Positions 8,316 to 11,295 of a stretch of DNA of 64,000 nucleotides are shown here, piece by piece. Where the stretch lies: positions 1,791-65,790 of the forward strand of contig DASPSR010000011.1 in NCBI GenBank assembly GCA_035623825.1, in the 5' to 3' direction. Position 1 is the stretch's first letter; the number at the start of each line of letters is the position of its first letter. This stretch comes from Nitrospirota bacterium (GTDB lineage Bacteria; Nitrospirota; UBA9217). A model generated the notes under the pieces. The model was not told the origin of the DNA. It saw nothing but the letters and a program-made list of their open reading frames with translations, and did not search any database. The position numbers and the translations under genes are program-made.

Positions 8316-10097
8316 GTGGGTTCGGCAATGCAATCATCTTCAATATCAAAATATTCTCAATTGAAAAGCGACCTCTTGCAGTGCACCGACGATCTACTTG
8401 CCGTGGAGAACATCCGTGAATGCCCCTGCGAGGATCTGCGGGAAAAGATCCGGTCGAACGCCTTCAACCTCGTTGTCGTCGGTCAGTTCAAGCGCGGGAA
8501 AACGAGCCTCATCAACGCGCTGCTCGGCGCGGAGATACTGCCTGTAGCGGTCGTTCCTCTCACCTCCATCGTCACTATCATGACCTACGGAGAAGCGCTC
8601 AGGATGAAGGTTTACTTCAATGACGGGAAAATTGCTGAGATCAAGCCGGAAAATCTTATGGAATATGTTACGGAAAAAGGAAATCCCAAAAACGTCAAAG
8701 ATGTGCATGAAGTCGTTATTACATATCCGTCTCCCTATCTCAAGGACGGCGTGCGGCTTATCGATACGCCCGGCGTAGGCTCGATCTATCAGCACAATAC
8801 GGACGTTGCCTACCAGTATCTGCCGAAATCGGACGCCGCACTTTTCCTTCTCTCCGTGGACCAGCCCATGAGCAGGGCGGAGCTCGATTTTTTGAACGAC
8901 GTGAAGGAGTATTCAAACAAGATATTCTTTGTTCTGAACAAAGCGGATTATCTAAGGGAGAGCGATCTTAAGGAATCCCTCGAATTTTCCAAAACCGGGC
9001 TTGAGGAAGCGATGGGTTCAGAGGTAAAGCTGTTCCCGGTGTCGGCTAGGCTCGCTCTCGAAGGGGAGGCTGCGAAATCCGATGAAATGATCCAGAAGAG
9101 CATGCTTCCCATCTTTTCTAAAGACCTGAACCGGTTCCTGATGGAAGAGAAGGGTAATGTTCTCTTGCTGTCCGTCGCTAACAATCTTCTACGGATCATA
9201 TCTCAAGCGAAACTTGAGCTCGCGCTTGAAATGAAGTCCCTCGAAACGCCGCTCGATGAACTTAAGAAAAAGATCTCAGTATTCGAAGATAAAAAGAGGG
9301 AGGTCATGCTCGAAAAGCAGGATTTCGATATCCTGCTTGACGGCGAGACCAAGAGATTGGCAAAAAACGTACTTGATGAGGATATTACGCGGTTCAGGAA
9401 AGAGCTGCTTGTTCATGAACAACCGCATCTTGAAGAGCAATTCGTTCAGATGAAAACGCTGCCATCCCGGGAGCTGCGAAACGCACTGGAGCAGTCCGTC
9501 ATAAACCATGTAAAACAGGCATTCAATGCATGGCGGGCAATCGAAGATGAAAGGCTTGCCAAGGCTTTTGAGGCGATCTGCAGGAGGTTCTCAATCAAGA
9601 TTAATGACACGGTTGACGCTCTACTGAAATATTCGTCCGATCTGTTTGAAATCCCCTTTGAGGCCGTTAAGACCGAGATGCTCTGGTCGGACAAGTCCCG
9701 GTTCTCATATAAATTTAGGGACGAACCCGTCGGAATTGAGATCGTAGCTTCGACATTGACCCTTGCGCTGCCCAAATTCATCGGCGACAGACTCATCTTG
9801 AATAAAATGAAGGAACACCTCATTCGTGTCGTGGATATGCAATTGGGCAGACTGGGGAGCGATTTTGAGGAACGACTCGACAAAAGCAAGCTCGATTTCC
9901 GCTGGGAAATGCTCCAGAAGATCGAAGCGGCAATTGAGGGAATCGGTACCGCCATCGAAAAGGGCATGACGAAACGATCAAGCGGCGAGCAGGAAGCCGC
10001 TGCAAGAAAGCGGACCACAACTGAGACCGTGGGAAAACTGGATGAGATTAAAAACAGACTCACACGGATCAGAGCAGCAGCCGACGCCGTGAAATAA
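8316..10097 (+). CDS. Bacterial dynamin-like GTPase
   Basis: G1 VVVGQFKRGKTSLINALLG, G3 LIDTPGVGS, G4 VLNKADYL, followed by a long helical stalk-like region. The start may be the ATG at 8328. Confidence 0.8.
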   Translation: MGSAMQSSSISKYSQLKSDLLQCTDDLLAVENIRECPCEDLREKIRSNAFNLVVVGQFKRGKTSLINALLGAEILPVAVVPLTSIVTIMTYGEALRMKVYFNDGKIAEIKPENLMEYVTEKGNPKNVKDVHEVVITYPSPYLKDGVRLIDTPGVGSIYQHNTDVAYQYLPKSDAALFLLSVDQPMSRAELDFLNDVKEYSNKIFFVLNKADYLRESDLKESLEFSKTGLEEAMGSEVKLFPVSARLALEGEAAKSDEMIQKSMLPIFSKDLNRFLMEEKGNVLLLSVANNLLRIISQAKLELALEMKSLETPLDELKKKISVFEDKKREVMLEKQDFDILLDGETKRLAKNVLDEDITRFRKELLVHEQPHLEEQFVQMKTLPSRELRNALEQSVINHVKQAFNAWRAIEDERLAKAFEAICRRFSIKINDTVDALLKYSSDLFEIPFEAVKTEMLWSDKSRFSYKFRDEPVGIEIVASTLTLALPKFIGDRLILNKMKEHLIRVVDMQLGRLGSDFEERLDKSKLDFRWEMLQKIEAAIEGIGTAIEKGMTKRSSGEQEAAARKRTTTETVGKLDEIKNRLTRIRAAADAVK

Positions 10098-10150
10098 AGT
10101 TTAAGGCAGCTGCAAGGATCCCAGCCCCGGAATGTGAGAAGCACACGACC

Positions 10151-10912
10151 ATGATCGGACGCGAAAGGGAGATCGAGATAGTCCGCGACTATATACGGCG
10201 CAGAAAAAGTCTGCACATCCATGGACCATCCGGCGTGGGCAAGAGCGCACTTCTCAATCACATCTATCGCACATGGAGAGAGATCAGCGATTCTCCCGTC
10301 CCGATCTATTGCAGGAACAGTGGCACGTTTCGCACAATCTTGGTCTTGATAGCGGAATTTCTGTTGGGGCGCGGAGAGAAGCTTATCAGCATCGATAAGT
10401 TTGGACGCGAAAATCAGGTATTCCGGTCCAACGAACTGAGAACGATTCCGACCAGGTATCTTCGCAACATGGTATTTCCGCATGTCAAAAAAGGTGATTT
10501 TTACGTCATTCTTGACCATCTTGAAGATGTGACGCCTAGGATTCATTCGTTGCTGTCAGCCCTGCATGGCTGTTCATCGGTTGTCACCGCAAGTAGACAG
10601 GGATGGGACTTAAGCGACTACAGGAGTTTCCCTAGCAATCTTACCCTGTGGCATGTTCCGAAGCTACCAATGGGGAATCTCGAAAAGAAAGATGCGTTCA
10701 TGCTCATCGAATCCTTATCCGGTACATCGAATATAAAAGTCGCCGATGAACTTCATATGTTTAAGGATATCTACGAAATATCCTTGGGAAACCCGAAGAT
10801 GATTGAGAATATCTTTGAGAAGGCCGCCGACCCGAAATATCTTCACGAAGGAAAACTGAACCTGAACTTGATTATTATCGACTGCCAGATTGAAGAGGTC
10901 CGTATGCCATGA
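10151..10912 (+). CDS. P-loop NTPase (AAA/ORC-like ATP-binding protein)
   Basis: Walker A HGPSGVGKSALL and Walker B-like FYVILDHLED. 253 aa. No closer family recognised. Confidence 0.6.
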   Translation: MIGREREIEIVRDYIRRRKSLHIHGPSGVGKSALLNHIYRTWREISDSPVPIYCRNSGTFRTILVLIAEFLLGRGEKLISIDKFGRENQVFRSNELRTIPTRYLRNMVFPHVKKGDFYVILDHLEDVTPRIHSLLSALHGCSSVVTASRQGWDLSDYRSFPSNLTLWHVPKLPMGNLEKKDAFMLIESLSGTSNIKVADELHMFKDIYEISLGNPKMIENIFEKAADPKYLHEGKLNLNLIIIDCQIEEVRMP

Positions 10913-11295
10913 TATTTTACTGTCCGGCATGCTGGAAGGAAATTAGAGAAGACGATAAAAAGTGTCAGCGATGCGGCGCTGACCTTACCGTGCTAGATCA
11001 GAAGAGCTTTGATGAGAAACTGATCCAGGCCTTAGAGCACCCCGTACGGAAAACAGCTAGAATGGCTGTCTGGATTCTGGGAGAGCGCAAGACTGTTGAA
11101 ACCGTCGCTCCGCTCATACGGCTGTTTGATGTGACGGAGAATCCATTTCTCCAAAGAGAGATCCTGGACACCCTCGACAAGATCGGAACGGAGGATGCCC
11201 TAAATTTTATTATGGAGTCTCTTGATCACCATGTAAGTATAGTGCGGAGAAGGGCCTGGGAAATCATGAACGAAAAAGAGAAGCGAAAAGAATGA
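10909..11295 (+). CDS. Zinc-ribbon plus HEAT-repeat protein
   Basis: The start overlaps the previous stop (ATGA). N-terminal CPACWKEI....CQRCG zinc ribbon. Then HEAT/PBS-lyase-like repeats (R..A...LGE......V..LI..L......[15 protein letters not shown]..). Confidence 0.6.

What the first reader, a model, noticed from the sequence alone, without database searches (positions are those of the whole stretch)
8316..11295. Dynamin-like GTPase, P-loop ATPase and zinc-ribbon/HEAT protein as cargo of a fluoride riboswitch
Seen in sequence:
- Riboswitch 2 and its terminator (8201-8288) are followed with no other signal by three tightly packed co-directional genes.
- The first is a dynamin-like GTPase (G1 GQFKRGKTS, G3 DTPG, G4 NKAD).
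- The second is a 253-aa P-loop ATPase (GPSGVGKS, VILDHLED).
- The third is a CxxC..CxxC zinc-ribbon/HEAT-repeat protein whose ATG overlaps the ATPase stop (ATGA).
- Enolase follows 124 nt later, with no terminator seen in between.

Established knowledge:
- Fluoride riboswitches switch on crcB, eriC-F, cation antiporters and fluoride-sensitive enzymes such as enolase.
- Bacterial dynamin-like proteins act in membrane remodelling and repair.
- A dynamin-based anti-phage system (Eleos) exists, but it uses two different dynamin-like subunits.

Inference:
- This trio is a fluoride-induced module, possibly for membrane surveillance or repair, or for assembly and positioning of the export machinery.
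- I am not aware of dynamin-like GTPases being described as fluoride-riboswitch cargo, so it is my best candidate for an undescribed system in the window.
Basis: partly seen in the sequence, partly recalled or inferred. Interest (0 to 1): 0.8.

Follow-up and report, generated by a model that had tools for sequence, protein, structure and literature searches.

The report
Fluoride-riboswitch-controlled bacterial dynamin-like GTPase
A fluoride-sensing RNA switch sits directly in front of a dynamin-like membrane-remodelling GTPase here and in nearly all related genomes examined, which adds an undescribed kind of protein to the bacterial fluoride stress response.

Summary
A fluoride riboswitch (Rfam RF01734, 55 bits, 8195-8266) with an overlapping terminator (8252-8288) precedes three genes: a BDLP/IniA-class dynamin-like GTPase (8316-10097), a minimal STAND/Cdc6-like AAA+ NTPase (10151-10912) and a zinc-ribbon/HEAT protein (10909-11295). 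Enolase follows with no terminator in between.

The link recurs. Of 21 non-redundant loci with upstream sequence (47-84% protein identity; MAGs labelled mostly Nitrospirota, plus a Geobacteraceae-labelled clade):
- 14 have a fluoride riboswitch immediately upstream of the dynamin gene.
- 6 have the gene inside a riboswitch-led operon.
- 1 has no riboswitch.

The riboswitch-dynamin junction survives changes of neighbours, includes cases where the dynamin is the only cargo, and uses both transcriptional and translational expression platforms.

The trio is not an obligate unit. The dynamin is the core. The AAA/HEAT pair is an accessory found in under half of loci, and in one locus the AAA gene has its own riboswitch with no dynamin nearby.

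No paper in the searchable library links fluoride riboswitches with dynamins.

The function is inferred, not shown: most likely a second-tier, fluoride-induced membrane-protection GTPase comparable to the drug-induced IniA. I rate it a new variant of the known fluoride regulon, of moderate to high interest.

The parts
5267..5296 (+). Sigma-70-like promoter (TTGACA-16-GATAAT, 11 of 12) upstream of riboswitch 1; likely start of the whole transcription unit
   Evidence: consensus match only
5303..5392 (+). Fluoride riboswitch 1 (aptamer 5303-5369) with overlapping terminator and T-run (5387-5392)
   Evidence: Rfam RF01734, 60.1 bits; sequence
5415..8182 (+). First-tier fluoride genes: Na+/H+ exchanger (probable ATG at 5415, ends 6593), USP 6630-7055, CrcB/Fluc 7075-7449, tandem DUF190 7460-8182
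   Evidence: Pfam; start codon
8195..8266 (+). Fluoride riboswitch 2 aptamer. It begins 12 nt after the DUF190 stop codon, so it is operon-internal. Pseudoknot strands are GGAGU 8210-8214 and ACUCC 8253-8257
   Evidence: Rfam RF01734, 55.1 bits, E 1.5e-12
8252..8288 (+). Intrinsic terminator (14-pair stem 8252-8284, T-run 8283-8288). Its 5' arm contains the pseudoknot 3' strand of the aptamer, which is the layout of an ON switch
   Evidence: the stem is kept by compensatory changes in orthologous leaders
8316..10097 (+). Dynamin-like GTPase, 593 aa, BDLP/IniA class. G1 8481-8507, G3 8763-8774, G4 8937-8948. Conserved loop at the trunk tip, residues 455-486 = 9678-9773 (candidate membrane-binding element)
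10151..10912 (+). Minimal STAND/Cdc6-like AAA+ NTPase, 253 aa. Walker A 10223-10246, Walker B 10508-10525, GNPKMI 10787-10804
10909..11295 (+). Zinc-ribbon (CPxCW...CxxCG) plus HEAT-repeat protein, 128 aa. Its start overlaps the AAA stop codon (ATGA)
11420..12691 (+). Enolase, a known fluoride-sensitive enzyme and known riboswitch cargo; probably co-transcribed
   Evidence: Dyn-Eno-HAD are tightly packed in L020
13309..14175 (+). HAD-family hydrolase 13309-13779 and HIT protein 13795-14175, recurrent distal members of the island

Best explanation
This is the distal, second-tier unit of a fluoride-response island.

Shown:
- An operon-internal fluoride riboswitch of the ON type gates transcription into a BDLP/IniA-class dynamin-like GTPase, followed here by a small STAND/Cdc6-like AAA+ NTPase, a zinc-ribbon/HEAT protein and enolase.
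- The 5' arm of the terminator contains the strand (ACUCC, 8253-8257) that pairs with GGAGU (8210-8214) in the fluoride-bound pseudoknot.
- The riboswitch-dynamin linkage is conserved across many genomes, through rearrangements of the neighbouring genes, and with two kinds of expression platform.
- The dynamin is the conserved core cargo. The AAA/HEAT pair is an accessory that was recruited separately.

Inferred:
- Riboswitch 2 starts 12 nt after the preceding stop codon, so reaching the dynamin probably requires read-through of two riboswitch terminators in series. That would give the distal genes a higher and steeper fluoride threshold than the exporter genes.
- The GTPase binds the cytoplasmic membrane through the conserved aromatic/basic loop at the tip of its trunk. 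It remodels or seals the membrane in a GTP-dependent way, as shown for the drug-induced IniA and for DynA. This would preserve membrane integrity and the proton gradient when HF influx acidifies the cell.
- The AAA+ NTPase and the translationally coupled HEAT protein form a nucleotide-driven switch or adaptor split over two polypeptides. Its client is unknown.
For: Riboswitch and terminator.

Recurrence:
- A dedicated riboswitch lies directly upstream of the dynamin gene in the window and in L003, L005, L006, L009, L013, L016, L018, L020, L021, L023, L024, L025 and L027.
- The dynamin gene lies inside a riboswitch-led operon in L002, L004, L008, L012, L019 and L028.
- The dynamin is the sole cargo, or sits far from any crcB gene, in L006 (a tRNA gene on the other strand follows), L021 (after MacB/FtsX genes) and L024 (after a P-type ATPase).
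- L009 and L013 lack a T-run. There the same strand can pair with the Shine-Dalgarno region, which would be translational control of the same gene.
- The linkage extends to a clade 47% identical and labelled Geobacteraceae (L028).

Operon-internal position: the riboswitch starts -5 to +24 nt from the preceding stop codon in the window, L003, L009, L013 and L025.

Protein class:
- Dynamin_N at 108 bits.
- PDB sequence matches to BDLP (2.5e-24) and IniA (3e-19).
- AlphaFold model (pLDDT 75) matches IniA 6J72 (E 4e-16, TM about 0.6) and BDLP 2J69 (TM 0.67).
- G1, G3 and G4 are invariant, as is T83 at the expected G2 position.
- The conserved loop 455-486 (W457, K460, F463, Y465, K466, F467, L485, P486, K487) lies between the third and fourth trunk helices. 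IniA's lipid-interacting loop and the BDLP paddle lie in the same place (PMC6715688).

AAA protein: a family of only 110 proteins, largely on the same contigs as the dynamin family. The model (pLDDT 90) matches NLR NB-ARC, TnsC and ORC/Cdc6. The ATGA overlap with the HEAT gene is also seen in L019.
Against: - No expression or biochemical data exist. Fluoride induction, membrane binding and GTPase activity are all untested.
- The candidate membrane loop is modelled at pLDDT below 50, and there is no predicted transmembrane segment.
- One related locus (L029/L030) keeps Dyn-MutS_V-MutS_V-enolase with no detectable riboswitch, even at E <= 10.
- Several lineages carry internally deleted, frameshifted dynamin remnants (L012-L015), so the gene is dispensable in some settings.
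- An internal promoter inside the DUF190 gene cannot be excluded. There is a weak 9-of-12 match at 7833-7860. If it is active, the two-tier reading weakens.
- The loci are mostly orthologous and from related MAGs, so they are not independent events.
- Relatives below about 47% identity could not be examined for genomic context.
Confidence: 0.6

Rival explanations
1. P-loop NTPase compensation or decoy. Fluoride with Mg2+ or Al3+ forms phosphate analogues (MgF3-, AlF4-) that trap P-loop NTPases in NDP-bound transition-state complexes. On this view the island collects P-loop NTPases (dynamin GTPase, AAA+ NTPase, paired MutS_V ABC-type ATPases) to replace or out-titrate poisoned enzymes, in the same way that extra enolase is made.
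For: Three unrelated P-loop NTPase families recur in these fluoride islands: Dyn, AAA, and MutS_V x2 in L019, L025, L027 and L029. Overproducing fluoride-inhibited enzymes (enolase, pyrophosphatase) is an accepted logic of the regulon (PMC11139923). That GDP-AlF4- traps dynamin-family G domains is from my own knowledge, not tested here.
Against: BDLPs are generally non-essential accessory proteins, so it is unclear what would need compensating. No housekeeping paralogue was seen in the window. A stoichiometric sink would be very inefficient compared with export through CrcB. No fluoride-specific sequence feature was found that separates this clade from the wider family.
Confidence: 0.15
2. DNA-linked role. 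The dynamin works with the neighbouring MutS_V paralogues on DNA or the replisome, like the E. coli clamp-binding dynamin homologue CrfC, to deal with fluoride-induced replication or repair stress.
For: MutS_V pairs lie downstream of the dynamin in L019, L025 and L027, and directly next to it in L029/L030. mutS-like genes are long-known crcB-motif cargo (PMC2864571). There is a weak NCBIfam CrfC hit.
Against: The CrfC hit is 25.6 bits against a cutoff of 1146 and covers only the P-loop region. By eye I see no conserved clamp-binding motif of the QL[SD]LF type in the N-terminal sequence (translation, consensus); I ran no motif search. The best structural matches are the membrane-active IniA and BDLP. 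Most loci, including the window, have no MutS_V gene near the dynamin.
Confidence: 0.1
3. Passenger or defence gene. The dynamin is an Eleos-like anti-phage gene, or an unrelated gene that happens to lie in a stress island, and the riboswitch really serves enolase/HAD downstream.
For: PADLOC LeoA (3e-20) and LeoBC (9e-18) models hit the protein. Enolase and HAD, which are known cargo, often follow it.
Against: There is only one dynamin gene, with no LeoBC-type partner and no defence neighbours. The PADLOC hits are no stronger than the general BDLP similarity seen in the PDB sequence search (BDLP 2.5e-24). In L006, L021 and L024 the riboswitch is followed by the dynamin and then by opposite-strand or unrelated genes, so the dynamin itself is the cargo. 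The junction is kept across at least six different upstream neighbours.
Confidence: 0.04

Closest known systems
IniA (iniBAC operon, Mycobacterium): stress-induced bacterial dynamin-like protein
   Same: Single-chain protein of about 600 aa with a GTPase domain, neck and trunk. It is the best structural match (6J72, E 4e-16, TM about 0.6) and a clear sequence match (3e-19). Both are soluble proteins with a loop, not a transmembrane paddle, at the position used for lipid binding. Both are switched on by a specific chemical stress (PMC6715688).
   Different: 18% identity. There are no IniB or IniC partners. Induction here is by a cis-acting fluoride riboswitch, not by a protein regulator responding to cell-wall drugs. 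The organisms are labelled Nitrospirota and Geobacteraceae rather than mycobacteria. Membrane fission activity has not been tested.
Nostoc punctiforme BDLP (2J68/2J69/2W6D)
   Same: Best sequence match in the PDB (2.5e-24) and the highest query-normalised TM-score (0.67). Same closed arrangement of GTPase, neck and trunk.
   Different: BDLP is about 100 aa longer and has a helical-hairpin paddle that inserts into the membrane. The protein here has a 30-residue loop instead.
The classical fluoride-riboswitch regulon (crcB/Fluc, CLC-F, Na+/H+ antiporters, enolase, pyrophosphatase, HAD, MutS-like, formate hydrogen lyase, chorismate mutase)
   Same: Same aptamer family (RF01734) and the same ON-switch design with an overlapping terminator. 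The same island carries CrcB, a Na+/H+ exchanger, USP, DUF190, enolase and HAD.
   Different: Dynamin-like GTPases, STAND-like AAA+ NTPases and HEAT proteins are not among the cargo classes listed in the 2010 motif paper or the 2024 review. No paper combines the terms riboswitch, fluoride and dynamin. The riboswitch here is operon-internal, which creates two serial checkpoints.
Eleos (LeoA + LeoBC) anti-phage system and ETEC LeoABC
   Same: The PADLOC LeoA and LeoBC profiles hit the protein. LeoA is likewise a short BDLP without a paddle (the paddle statement is from my own knowledge).
   Different: Eleos needs two different dynamin-like subunits, and only one is present here. The context is ion and fluoride stress, not defence.
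STAND / ORC-Cdc6-type AAA+ NTPases (NLR NB-ARC, Avs, TnsC)
   Same: The 253-aa protein has Walker A, Walker B and a GxP-like GNPKMI lid motif. Its model matches NB-ARC modules, TnsC and Cdc6/ORC (TM 0.58-0.68).
   Different: It is only the nucleotide-binding module, with no effector domain and no sensor repeats in the same chain. A separate zinc-ribbon/HEAT protein is encoded next to it and translationally coupled. None of the 110 family members is a fusion with HEAT repeats.

Membership tests
Fluoride riboswitch (crcB motif, RF01734) | Covariance-model score above Rfam's gathering threshold | tested here: met
   55.1 bits against 34, E 1.5e-12, full-length match to model positions 1-64
Fluoride riboswitch (crcB motif, RF01734) | Expression platform that is mutually exclusive with the aptamer pseudoknot (ON switch) | tested here: met
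   The terminator's 5' arm at 8252-8265 contains ACUCC 8253-8257, the partner of GGAGU 8210-8214. The terminator is conserved, with compensatory changes, in 10 leaders
Fluoride riboswitch (crcB motif, RF01734) | Fluoride binding and fluoride-dependent read-through | not testable with these tools
   Needs in-line probing or single-round transcription with and without NaF
Dynamin superfamily / bacterial dynamin-like proteins | Dynamin-type GTPase domain with G1-G4 motifs | tested here: met
   Dynamin_N at 108 bits against 27. G1, G3 and G4 are present. They, and T83 at the expected G2 position, are invariant in 39 homologues
Dynamin superfamily / bacterial dynamin-like proteins | Helical neck and trunk bundles that fold back onto the GTPase domain | tested here: met
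   The AlphaFold model has long helices at 264-310, 313-379, 384-443, 487-556 and 558-590. Foldseek matches IniA and BDLP over about 600 columns
Dynamin superfamily / bacterial dynamin-like proteins | Membrane-binding element (paddle or lipid-interacting loop) at the tip of the trunk | tested here: inconclusive
   A conserved aromatic/basic loop at 455-486 is in the right position. It is modelled at pLDDT below 50, and there is no transmembrane segment
Dynamin superfamily / bacterial dynamin-like proteins | GTP-dependent membrane remodelling | not testable with these tools
   Needs liposome assays
Eleos / LeoABC | Two different dynamin-like subunits (LeoA plus LeoBC) encoded together | tested here: not met
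   A single dynamin gene. tblastn finds no second copy in the window, and there is none in the related loci
iniBAC system | IniA accompanied by IniB and the second dynamin IniC | tested here: not met
   The neighbours are AAA, HEAT, enolase, HAD or none. There is no second Dynamin_N gene
STAND NTPases | Nucleotide-binding oligomerisation module (Walker A, Walker B, GxP lid) | tested here: met
   AAA_16 at 39.7 bits against 32.6, motifs, structural matches to NB-ARC and Cdc6
STAND NTPases | Sensor repeat domain and effector domain in the same polypeptide | tested here: not met
   The protein is 253 aa and consists of the NTPase module only. All 110 homologues are 143-304 aa. HEAT repeats are on a separate, adjacent protein
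CrfC-type clamp-binding dynamin | Equivalog-level similarity and a beta-clamp-binding motif | tested here: not met
   NF007368 scores 25.6 bits against 1146, over the P-loop region only. The clamp motif was checked by eye only in the N-terminal sequence; none was seen

The most novel reading that the evidence does not exclude
Fluoride is not only the inducer but also the direct effector of these proteins. The island has gathered P-loop NTPases (dynamin GTPase, STAND-like AAA+, paired MutS_V ATPases) because metal-fluoride complexes (GDP-MgF3- or GDP-AlF4-) lock them in the transition state. The riboswitch-induced dynamin would then be driven by fluoride itself into a stable, G-domain-dimerised membrane scaffold. 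That would make it a protein-level fluoride sensor and actuator that seals or reorganises the membrane for as long as fluoride stays high, and releases when the exporters have cleared it.
Probability: 0.1. Interest if true: 0.85.

Novelty: new variant of a known kind. Interest (0 to 1): 0.68.

Why it matters
Fluoride riboswitch cargo has been the main guide to how cells cope with fluoride. It is how CrcB/Fluc and CLC-F were recognised as exporters. A conserved, dedicated riboswitch in front of a dynamin-like GTPase points to an arm of the response that has not been studied, at the membrane or at the level of P-loop NTPase poisoning. It also offers a higher-threshold second tier of regulation to investigate.

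For the bacterial dynamin field, physiological triggers are known for very few members. This subfamily comes with a defined, cheap and titratable inducing signal (NaF), which makes its role directly testable.

The finding also flags a small family of STAND-like ATPases (110 proteins) and a zinc-ribbon/HEAT partner as new fluoride-regulon members of unknown function. This may be useful to groups engineering fluoride tolerance for organofluorine degradation or synthesis.

Tried and rejected
- **Eleos or other defence system:** rejected. There is a single dynamin gene, the PADLOC hits are no stronger than general BDLP similarity, and there are no defence neighbours.
- **Chance juxtaposition or hitch-hiking in an island:** rejected by the recurrence, and by the sole-cargo loci L006, L021 and L024.
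- **Obligate three-gene module:** rejected. The dynamin occurs without AAA/HEAT in most loci, AAA occurs alone behind a riboswitch in L026, and AAA has decayed next to an intact dynamin gene in L016.
- **CrfC-like identity:** rejected.
- **Hidden terminator or structured RNA between Dyn and AAA, or between HEAT and enolase:** none found.
- **Degenerate riboswitch in the exception locus L029:** searched at E <= 10, nothing found.
- **Baker et al. 2012 (PMC4140402):** not held, and my first guess at its id was wrong. I relied instead on the 2024 review's summary of it and on the 2010 motif paper.
- **First structure job:** It was redone without that row.
- **AAA profile against PDB sequences:** only P-loop-level hits to RFC and Cdc6.
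- **Limits reached:** Relatives below about 47% identity (more than 150 clusters) could not be examined for context.

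
Full report
**1. The observation**

Rfam finds two fluoride riboswitches in the window, at 5303-5369 (60.1 bits) and 8195-8266 (55.1 bits; gathering score 34). The second is followed by a 14-pair hairpin at 8252-8284 and a T-run at 8283-8288. This is the strongest terminator-like site between 5000 and 14500, and the region folds far better than shuffled controls (z = -4.9). The 5' arm of the hairpin contains ACUCC (8253-8257). In the fluoride-bound aptamer that strand pairs with GGAGU (8210-8214). This is the classical ON-switch layout described for the crcB motif (PMC2864571).

Three co-directional genes follow:
- 8316-10097: a 593-aa protein with Dynamin_N (5.6e-31, 108 bits). 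G1 is GQFKRGKTS, G3 is DTPG and G4 is NKAD.
- 10151-10912: a 253-aa AAA_16-type P-loop protein.
- 10909-11295: a 128-aa protein with a CPACW...CQRCG zinc ribbon and HEAT_2 repeats. Its ATG overlaps the preceding stop codon as ATGA.

Enolase starts 124 nt later. Neither intergenic spacer has significant structure.

**2. Does it recur?**

I fetched loci encoding relatives of the dynamin from three sources: genome contigs (L001-L006), metagenome contigs (L007-L015), and look-ups of diverse homologues (L016-L024). I then scanned them with Rfam and mapped the island genes by tblastn. Further loci came from AAA homologues (L025-L027) and from an outgroup dynamin clade (L028-L030).

After merging identical places (L016=L017, L021=L022, L029=L030), 21 loci have usable sequence upstream of the dynamin gene:
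- **Dedicated riboswitch immediately upstream (14 loci):** the window, L003, L005, L006, L009, L013, L016, L018, L020, L021, L023, L024, L025, L027.
- **Dynamin gene as a downstream member of a riboswitch-led operon (6 loci):** L002, L004, L008, L012, L019, L028. Typical orders are riboswitch-NaH-USP-Dyn or riboswitch-NaH-USP-CrcB-DUF190-Dyn.
- **No riboswitch (1 locus):** L029/L030.

The loci are orthologous and mostly from related MAGs, so they are not 20 independent events. Three features argue for selection on the linkage rather than inherited synteny:
- The gene upstream of the riboswitch-dynamin junction differs between loci. It is DUF190, USP, a DUF2934 protein, a MacB/FtsX ABC transporter, a P-type ATPase, or a group II intron region.
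- In L006, L021 and L024 the dynamin is the only cargo, or is far from any crcB gene.
- Ten of twelve of the dynamin-proximal leaders examined carry a terminator, and an alignment of ten leaders (nine dynamin-proximal plus the window's riboswitch 1) shows its inner pairs are kept by compensatory changes. L009 and L013 have no T-run; there the same strand can pair with the Shine-Dalgarno region. Two different expression platforms thus serve the same gene.

The link also holds in a clade only about 47% identical, some of whose members are labelled Geobacteraceae (L028).

**3. Core and accessory genes**

The AAA and zinc-ribbon/HEAT genes accompany the dynamin in the window and in L004, L005, L018, L019, L025 and L027. 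They are decayed in L012 and L016. L009 has the HEAT gene without the AAA gene. They are absent from the other loci.

The AAA family is small: 110 proteins, 37-100% identical, all 143-304 aa, and never fused to repeats.

In L026 the AAA gene stands alone directly behind its own fluoride riboswitch (3812-3880, gene at 3896). A second riboswitch then leads into a hydrogenlyase-like complex. The AAA/HEAT pair is therefore a member of the fluoride regulon in its own right, but it is not an obligate partner of the dynamin.

Small coiled-coil proteins, larger HEAT proteins and paired MutS_V genes often follow it. mutS-like genes are long-known crcB-motif cargo.

**4. What the proteins are**

*The dynamin.* It matches Nostoc BDLP (2.5e-24), IniA (3e-19) and Campylobacter DLP1/2 by sequence. 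An AlphaFold model built from 39 homologues (pLDDT 74.9, pTM 0.61) has a GTPase domain and long neck and trunk helices. Its best Foldseek matches are IniA 6J72 (E 4e-16, TM about 0.6) and BDLP 2J69 (TM 0.67).

Between the third and fourth trunk helices lies a 30-residue loop (455-486). It is poorly modelled but highly conserved and rich in aromatic and basic residues. IniA's lipid-interacting loop and the BDLP paddle sit in the same position (PMC6715688). No transmembrane segment is predicted.

The protein belongs to a large continuum of single BDLPs of about 590 aa. There are 2,246 cluster representatives below 1e-30 and more than 150 full-length ones at 30-53% identity. The fluoride-linked proteins form one or more subclades of this family. 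I found no sequence feature specific to them.

*The AAA protein.* Its model is confident (pLDDT 90.4). It matches NLR NB-ARC modules, TnsC, ORC/Cdc6 and RuvBL (TM 0.58-0.68). It has Walker A, Walker B, an ASRQSW motif and a GxP-like GNPKMI motif. I read it as a minimal STAND/Cdc6-type nucleotide switch.

*The HEAT protein.* Its four zinc-ribbon cysteines and its HEAT repeats are conserved in orthologues. Given the translational coupling, it may supply a repeat 'sensor' arm on a separate polypeptide. That is inference.

**5. How it most likely works**

Shown: this is an ON-type fluoride riboswitch with a dedicated, conserved link to a BDLP gene.

Inferred, step 1: riboswitch 2 starts 12 nt after the DUF190 stop codon. 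The equivalent riboswitches in L003, L009, L013 and L025 start -5 to +24 nt from the preceding stop codon. That leaves no room for a separate promoter. The only strong promoter-like site is at 5267-5296, ahead of riboswitch 1. Transcription into the dynamin unit therefore probably has to pass two fluoride checkpoints in series. Exporters and pH homeostasis genes would come first. The dynamin, AAA, HEAT and enolase genes would come on only at higher or sustained fluoride.

Inferred, step 2: by analogy with IniA (drug-induced, binds membranes through its loop, GTP-dependent fission) and with DynA (membrane protection against pore-forming agents and phage; abstracts of PMC8844932 and PMC12998192), the GTPase acts on the cytoplasmic membrane. 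HF influx acidifies the cytoplasm and drains the proton-motive force, and fluoride stress up-regulates membrane-integrity genes in several bacteria (PMC11139923). Under those conditions the GTPase would keep the membrane intact.

I put about 0.9 on 'the dynamin is genuine fluoride-riboswitch cargo' and about 0.45 on the membrane-protection mechanism.

**6. Rivals**

- **P-loop compensation or decoy (0.15).** The islands gather three unrelated P-loop NTPase families, and overproducing fluoride-inhibited enzymes is an accepted logic of the regulon. However, BDLPs are not essential enzymes that would need topping up.
- **CrfC-like DNA-linked role with MutS_V (0.1).** The adjacency in some loci favours it. 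The fold, the failed CrfC model and the many loci without MutS_V argue against it.
- **Defence gene or passenger (0.04).** The sole-cargo loci and the single dynamin subunit contradict it.

**7. Novelty**

No paper in about 8.3 million full texts contains 'fluoride riboswitch' together with 'dynamin', or riboswitch, fluoride and dynamin together. The 2010 motif paper lists mutS, K+/Cl- transport and formate hydrogen lyase. The 2024 review lists exporters, Na+/H+ antiporters, pyrophosphatase, HAD, enolase, formate hydrogen lyase and chorismate mutase. Neither mentions a GTPase. Baker et al. 2012 and its supplement could not be read, so a rare entry in a supplementary table cannot be excluded.

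The parts are known kinds: the riboswitch class, BDLPs and STAND-like NTPases. What appears new is the combination: a dynamin subfamily, and separately a mini-STAND/HEAT pair, as conserved fluoride cargo behind an operon-internal second checkpoint. I classify this as a new variant of a known kind.

**8. Limits**

- There are no experimental data.
- The taxonomic labels come from MAG records. One locus is labelled Betaproteobacteria, and one contig appears under both a Nitrospirae and an Actinomycetota label.
- Genomic context could not be obtained for relatives below about 47% identity.
- One locus lacks the riboswitch.
- Several lineages carry deleted dynamin remnants.

Noticed in passing
window 14206-14634 (-): A 142-aa protein matches Pfam FlK, the fluoroacetyl-CoA-specific thioesterase family (1.1e-33). 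It is convergent with the HIT gene at the edge of the fluoride island. This could hint at organofluorine metabolism, or it could be a generic hot-dog thioesterase.
   Followed up: no
window 44864-44943, 46664-46743, 53743-53820 (+): Two c-di-GMP-I-GGC-type riboswitch aptamers (71 and 67 bits) lie 1.8 kb apart, and there is one c-di-GMP-I aptamer (48 bits). Their downstream genes were not examined.
   Followed up: no
window 12692-13308: Enolase and HAD are 617 nt apart here, against about 20 nt in orthologous loci (L020, L025, L019). The two ORFs in the gap (12688-13155 on + and 12817-13245 on -) have no Pfam match. This may be an insertion or a decayed gene.
   Followed up: partly
window 5307 / 5415: The mechanical ORF for the Na+/H+ exchanger starts at TTG 5307, inside riboswitch 1. 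The real start is probably ATG 5415, just downstream of a GAAGGAGA Shine-Dalgarno-like sequence and after the terminator T-run at 5387-5392.
   Followed up: yes
window 470-5056: Upstream of riboswitch 1 lies an ion and stress gene set: a PEMT-like methyltransferase, a split chromate transporter, a tandem USP, a cation-efflux protein and an HMA_2 protein. Chromate transporter genes also lie in the loci of L018 and L024, adjacent to the dynamin in L024.
   Followed up: no
L012 8001-8527; L013 2320-3029; L014 1268-1707; L015 79-527: These are dynamin remnants with a large internal deletion (roughly residues 66-460 or 69-503 are missing) plus frameshifts. They still lie behind the riboswitch or the USP gene. 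L014 and L015 share the same deletion boundaries. The gene has been lost in some lineages.
   Followed up: partly
L016 6795-6940; L023 6822-6972; L024 6852-6951: These fluoride aptamers carry an extra hairpin of about 35-85 nt inserted between P1 and P3 (ccccgttagaga...tctaacgggg). They still score above the gathering threshold (42-48 bits). This appears to be an enlarged aptamer variant.
   Followed up: no
L009 1781-1882; L013 2209-2319: These dynamin-proximal riboswitches have no T-run terminator. The pseudoknot strand (ACTCCTCTT) can pair with the Shine-Dalgarno region (AAGAAGGGGG), which suggests translational control.
   Followed up: partly
L029 1487-10290 (= L030): The block 59-aa ORF, Dyn, MutS_V, MutS_V, enolase, MFS lies next to a glutamine synthetase gene with no fluoride riboswitch, even at E <= 10. 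By eye, a remnant resembling the C-terminus of the window's HIT protein follows the dynamin (about 3453-3534); I ran no similarity search on it. Regulation here must be different or lost.
   Followed up: partly
L028 6829-7008; L029 1487-1666: A conserved 59-aa ORF overlaps the dynamin start in the Geobacteraceae-like clade. It has a weak Rho_N/SAP-like N-terminus (0.005) and a Cys-rich C-terminus (CF..G....C....C.W...C).
   Followed up: partly
L005 636-896; L018 6602-6829; L023 6559-6780: A small DUF2934 protein (1.5e-11) lies just upstream of the dynamin-proximal riboswitch in three loci.
   Followed up: partly
L026 3812-11708: Two fluoride riboswitches lie 1 kb apart. The first controls the AAA gene alone. 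The second controls a formate-hydrogenlyase/Mbh-like membrane complex (NADHdh, Proton_antipo_M, Complex1_30/49kDa, Oxidored_q6).
   Followed up: partly
L018 10776-11894: A cyclopropane-fatty-acyl-phospholipid synthase (CMAS) gene follows Dyn-AAA-HEAT in the same direction. This would be a second membrane-directed activity in the same fluoride unit.
   Followed up: no
window 8382-8432 and 9579-9581 (Dyn C23, C36, C38, C422): Cysteines C36, C38 (CPCE motif) and C422 are invariant, and C23 nearly so, in 39 homologues. This could be a metal or redox site in the neck.
   Followed up: no
L023 5942-6079: A group II intron D1-D4 match (81 bits) lies about 750 nt upstream of the riboswitch-Dyn-HAD unit.
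   Followed up: no
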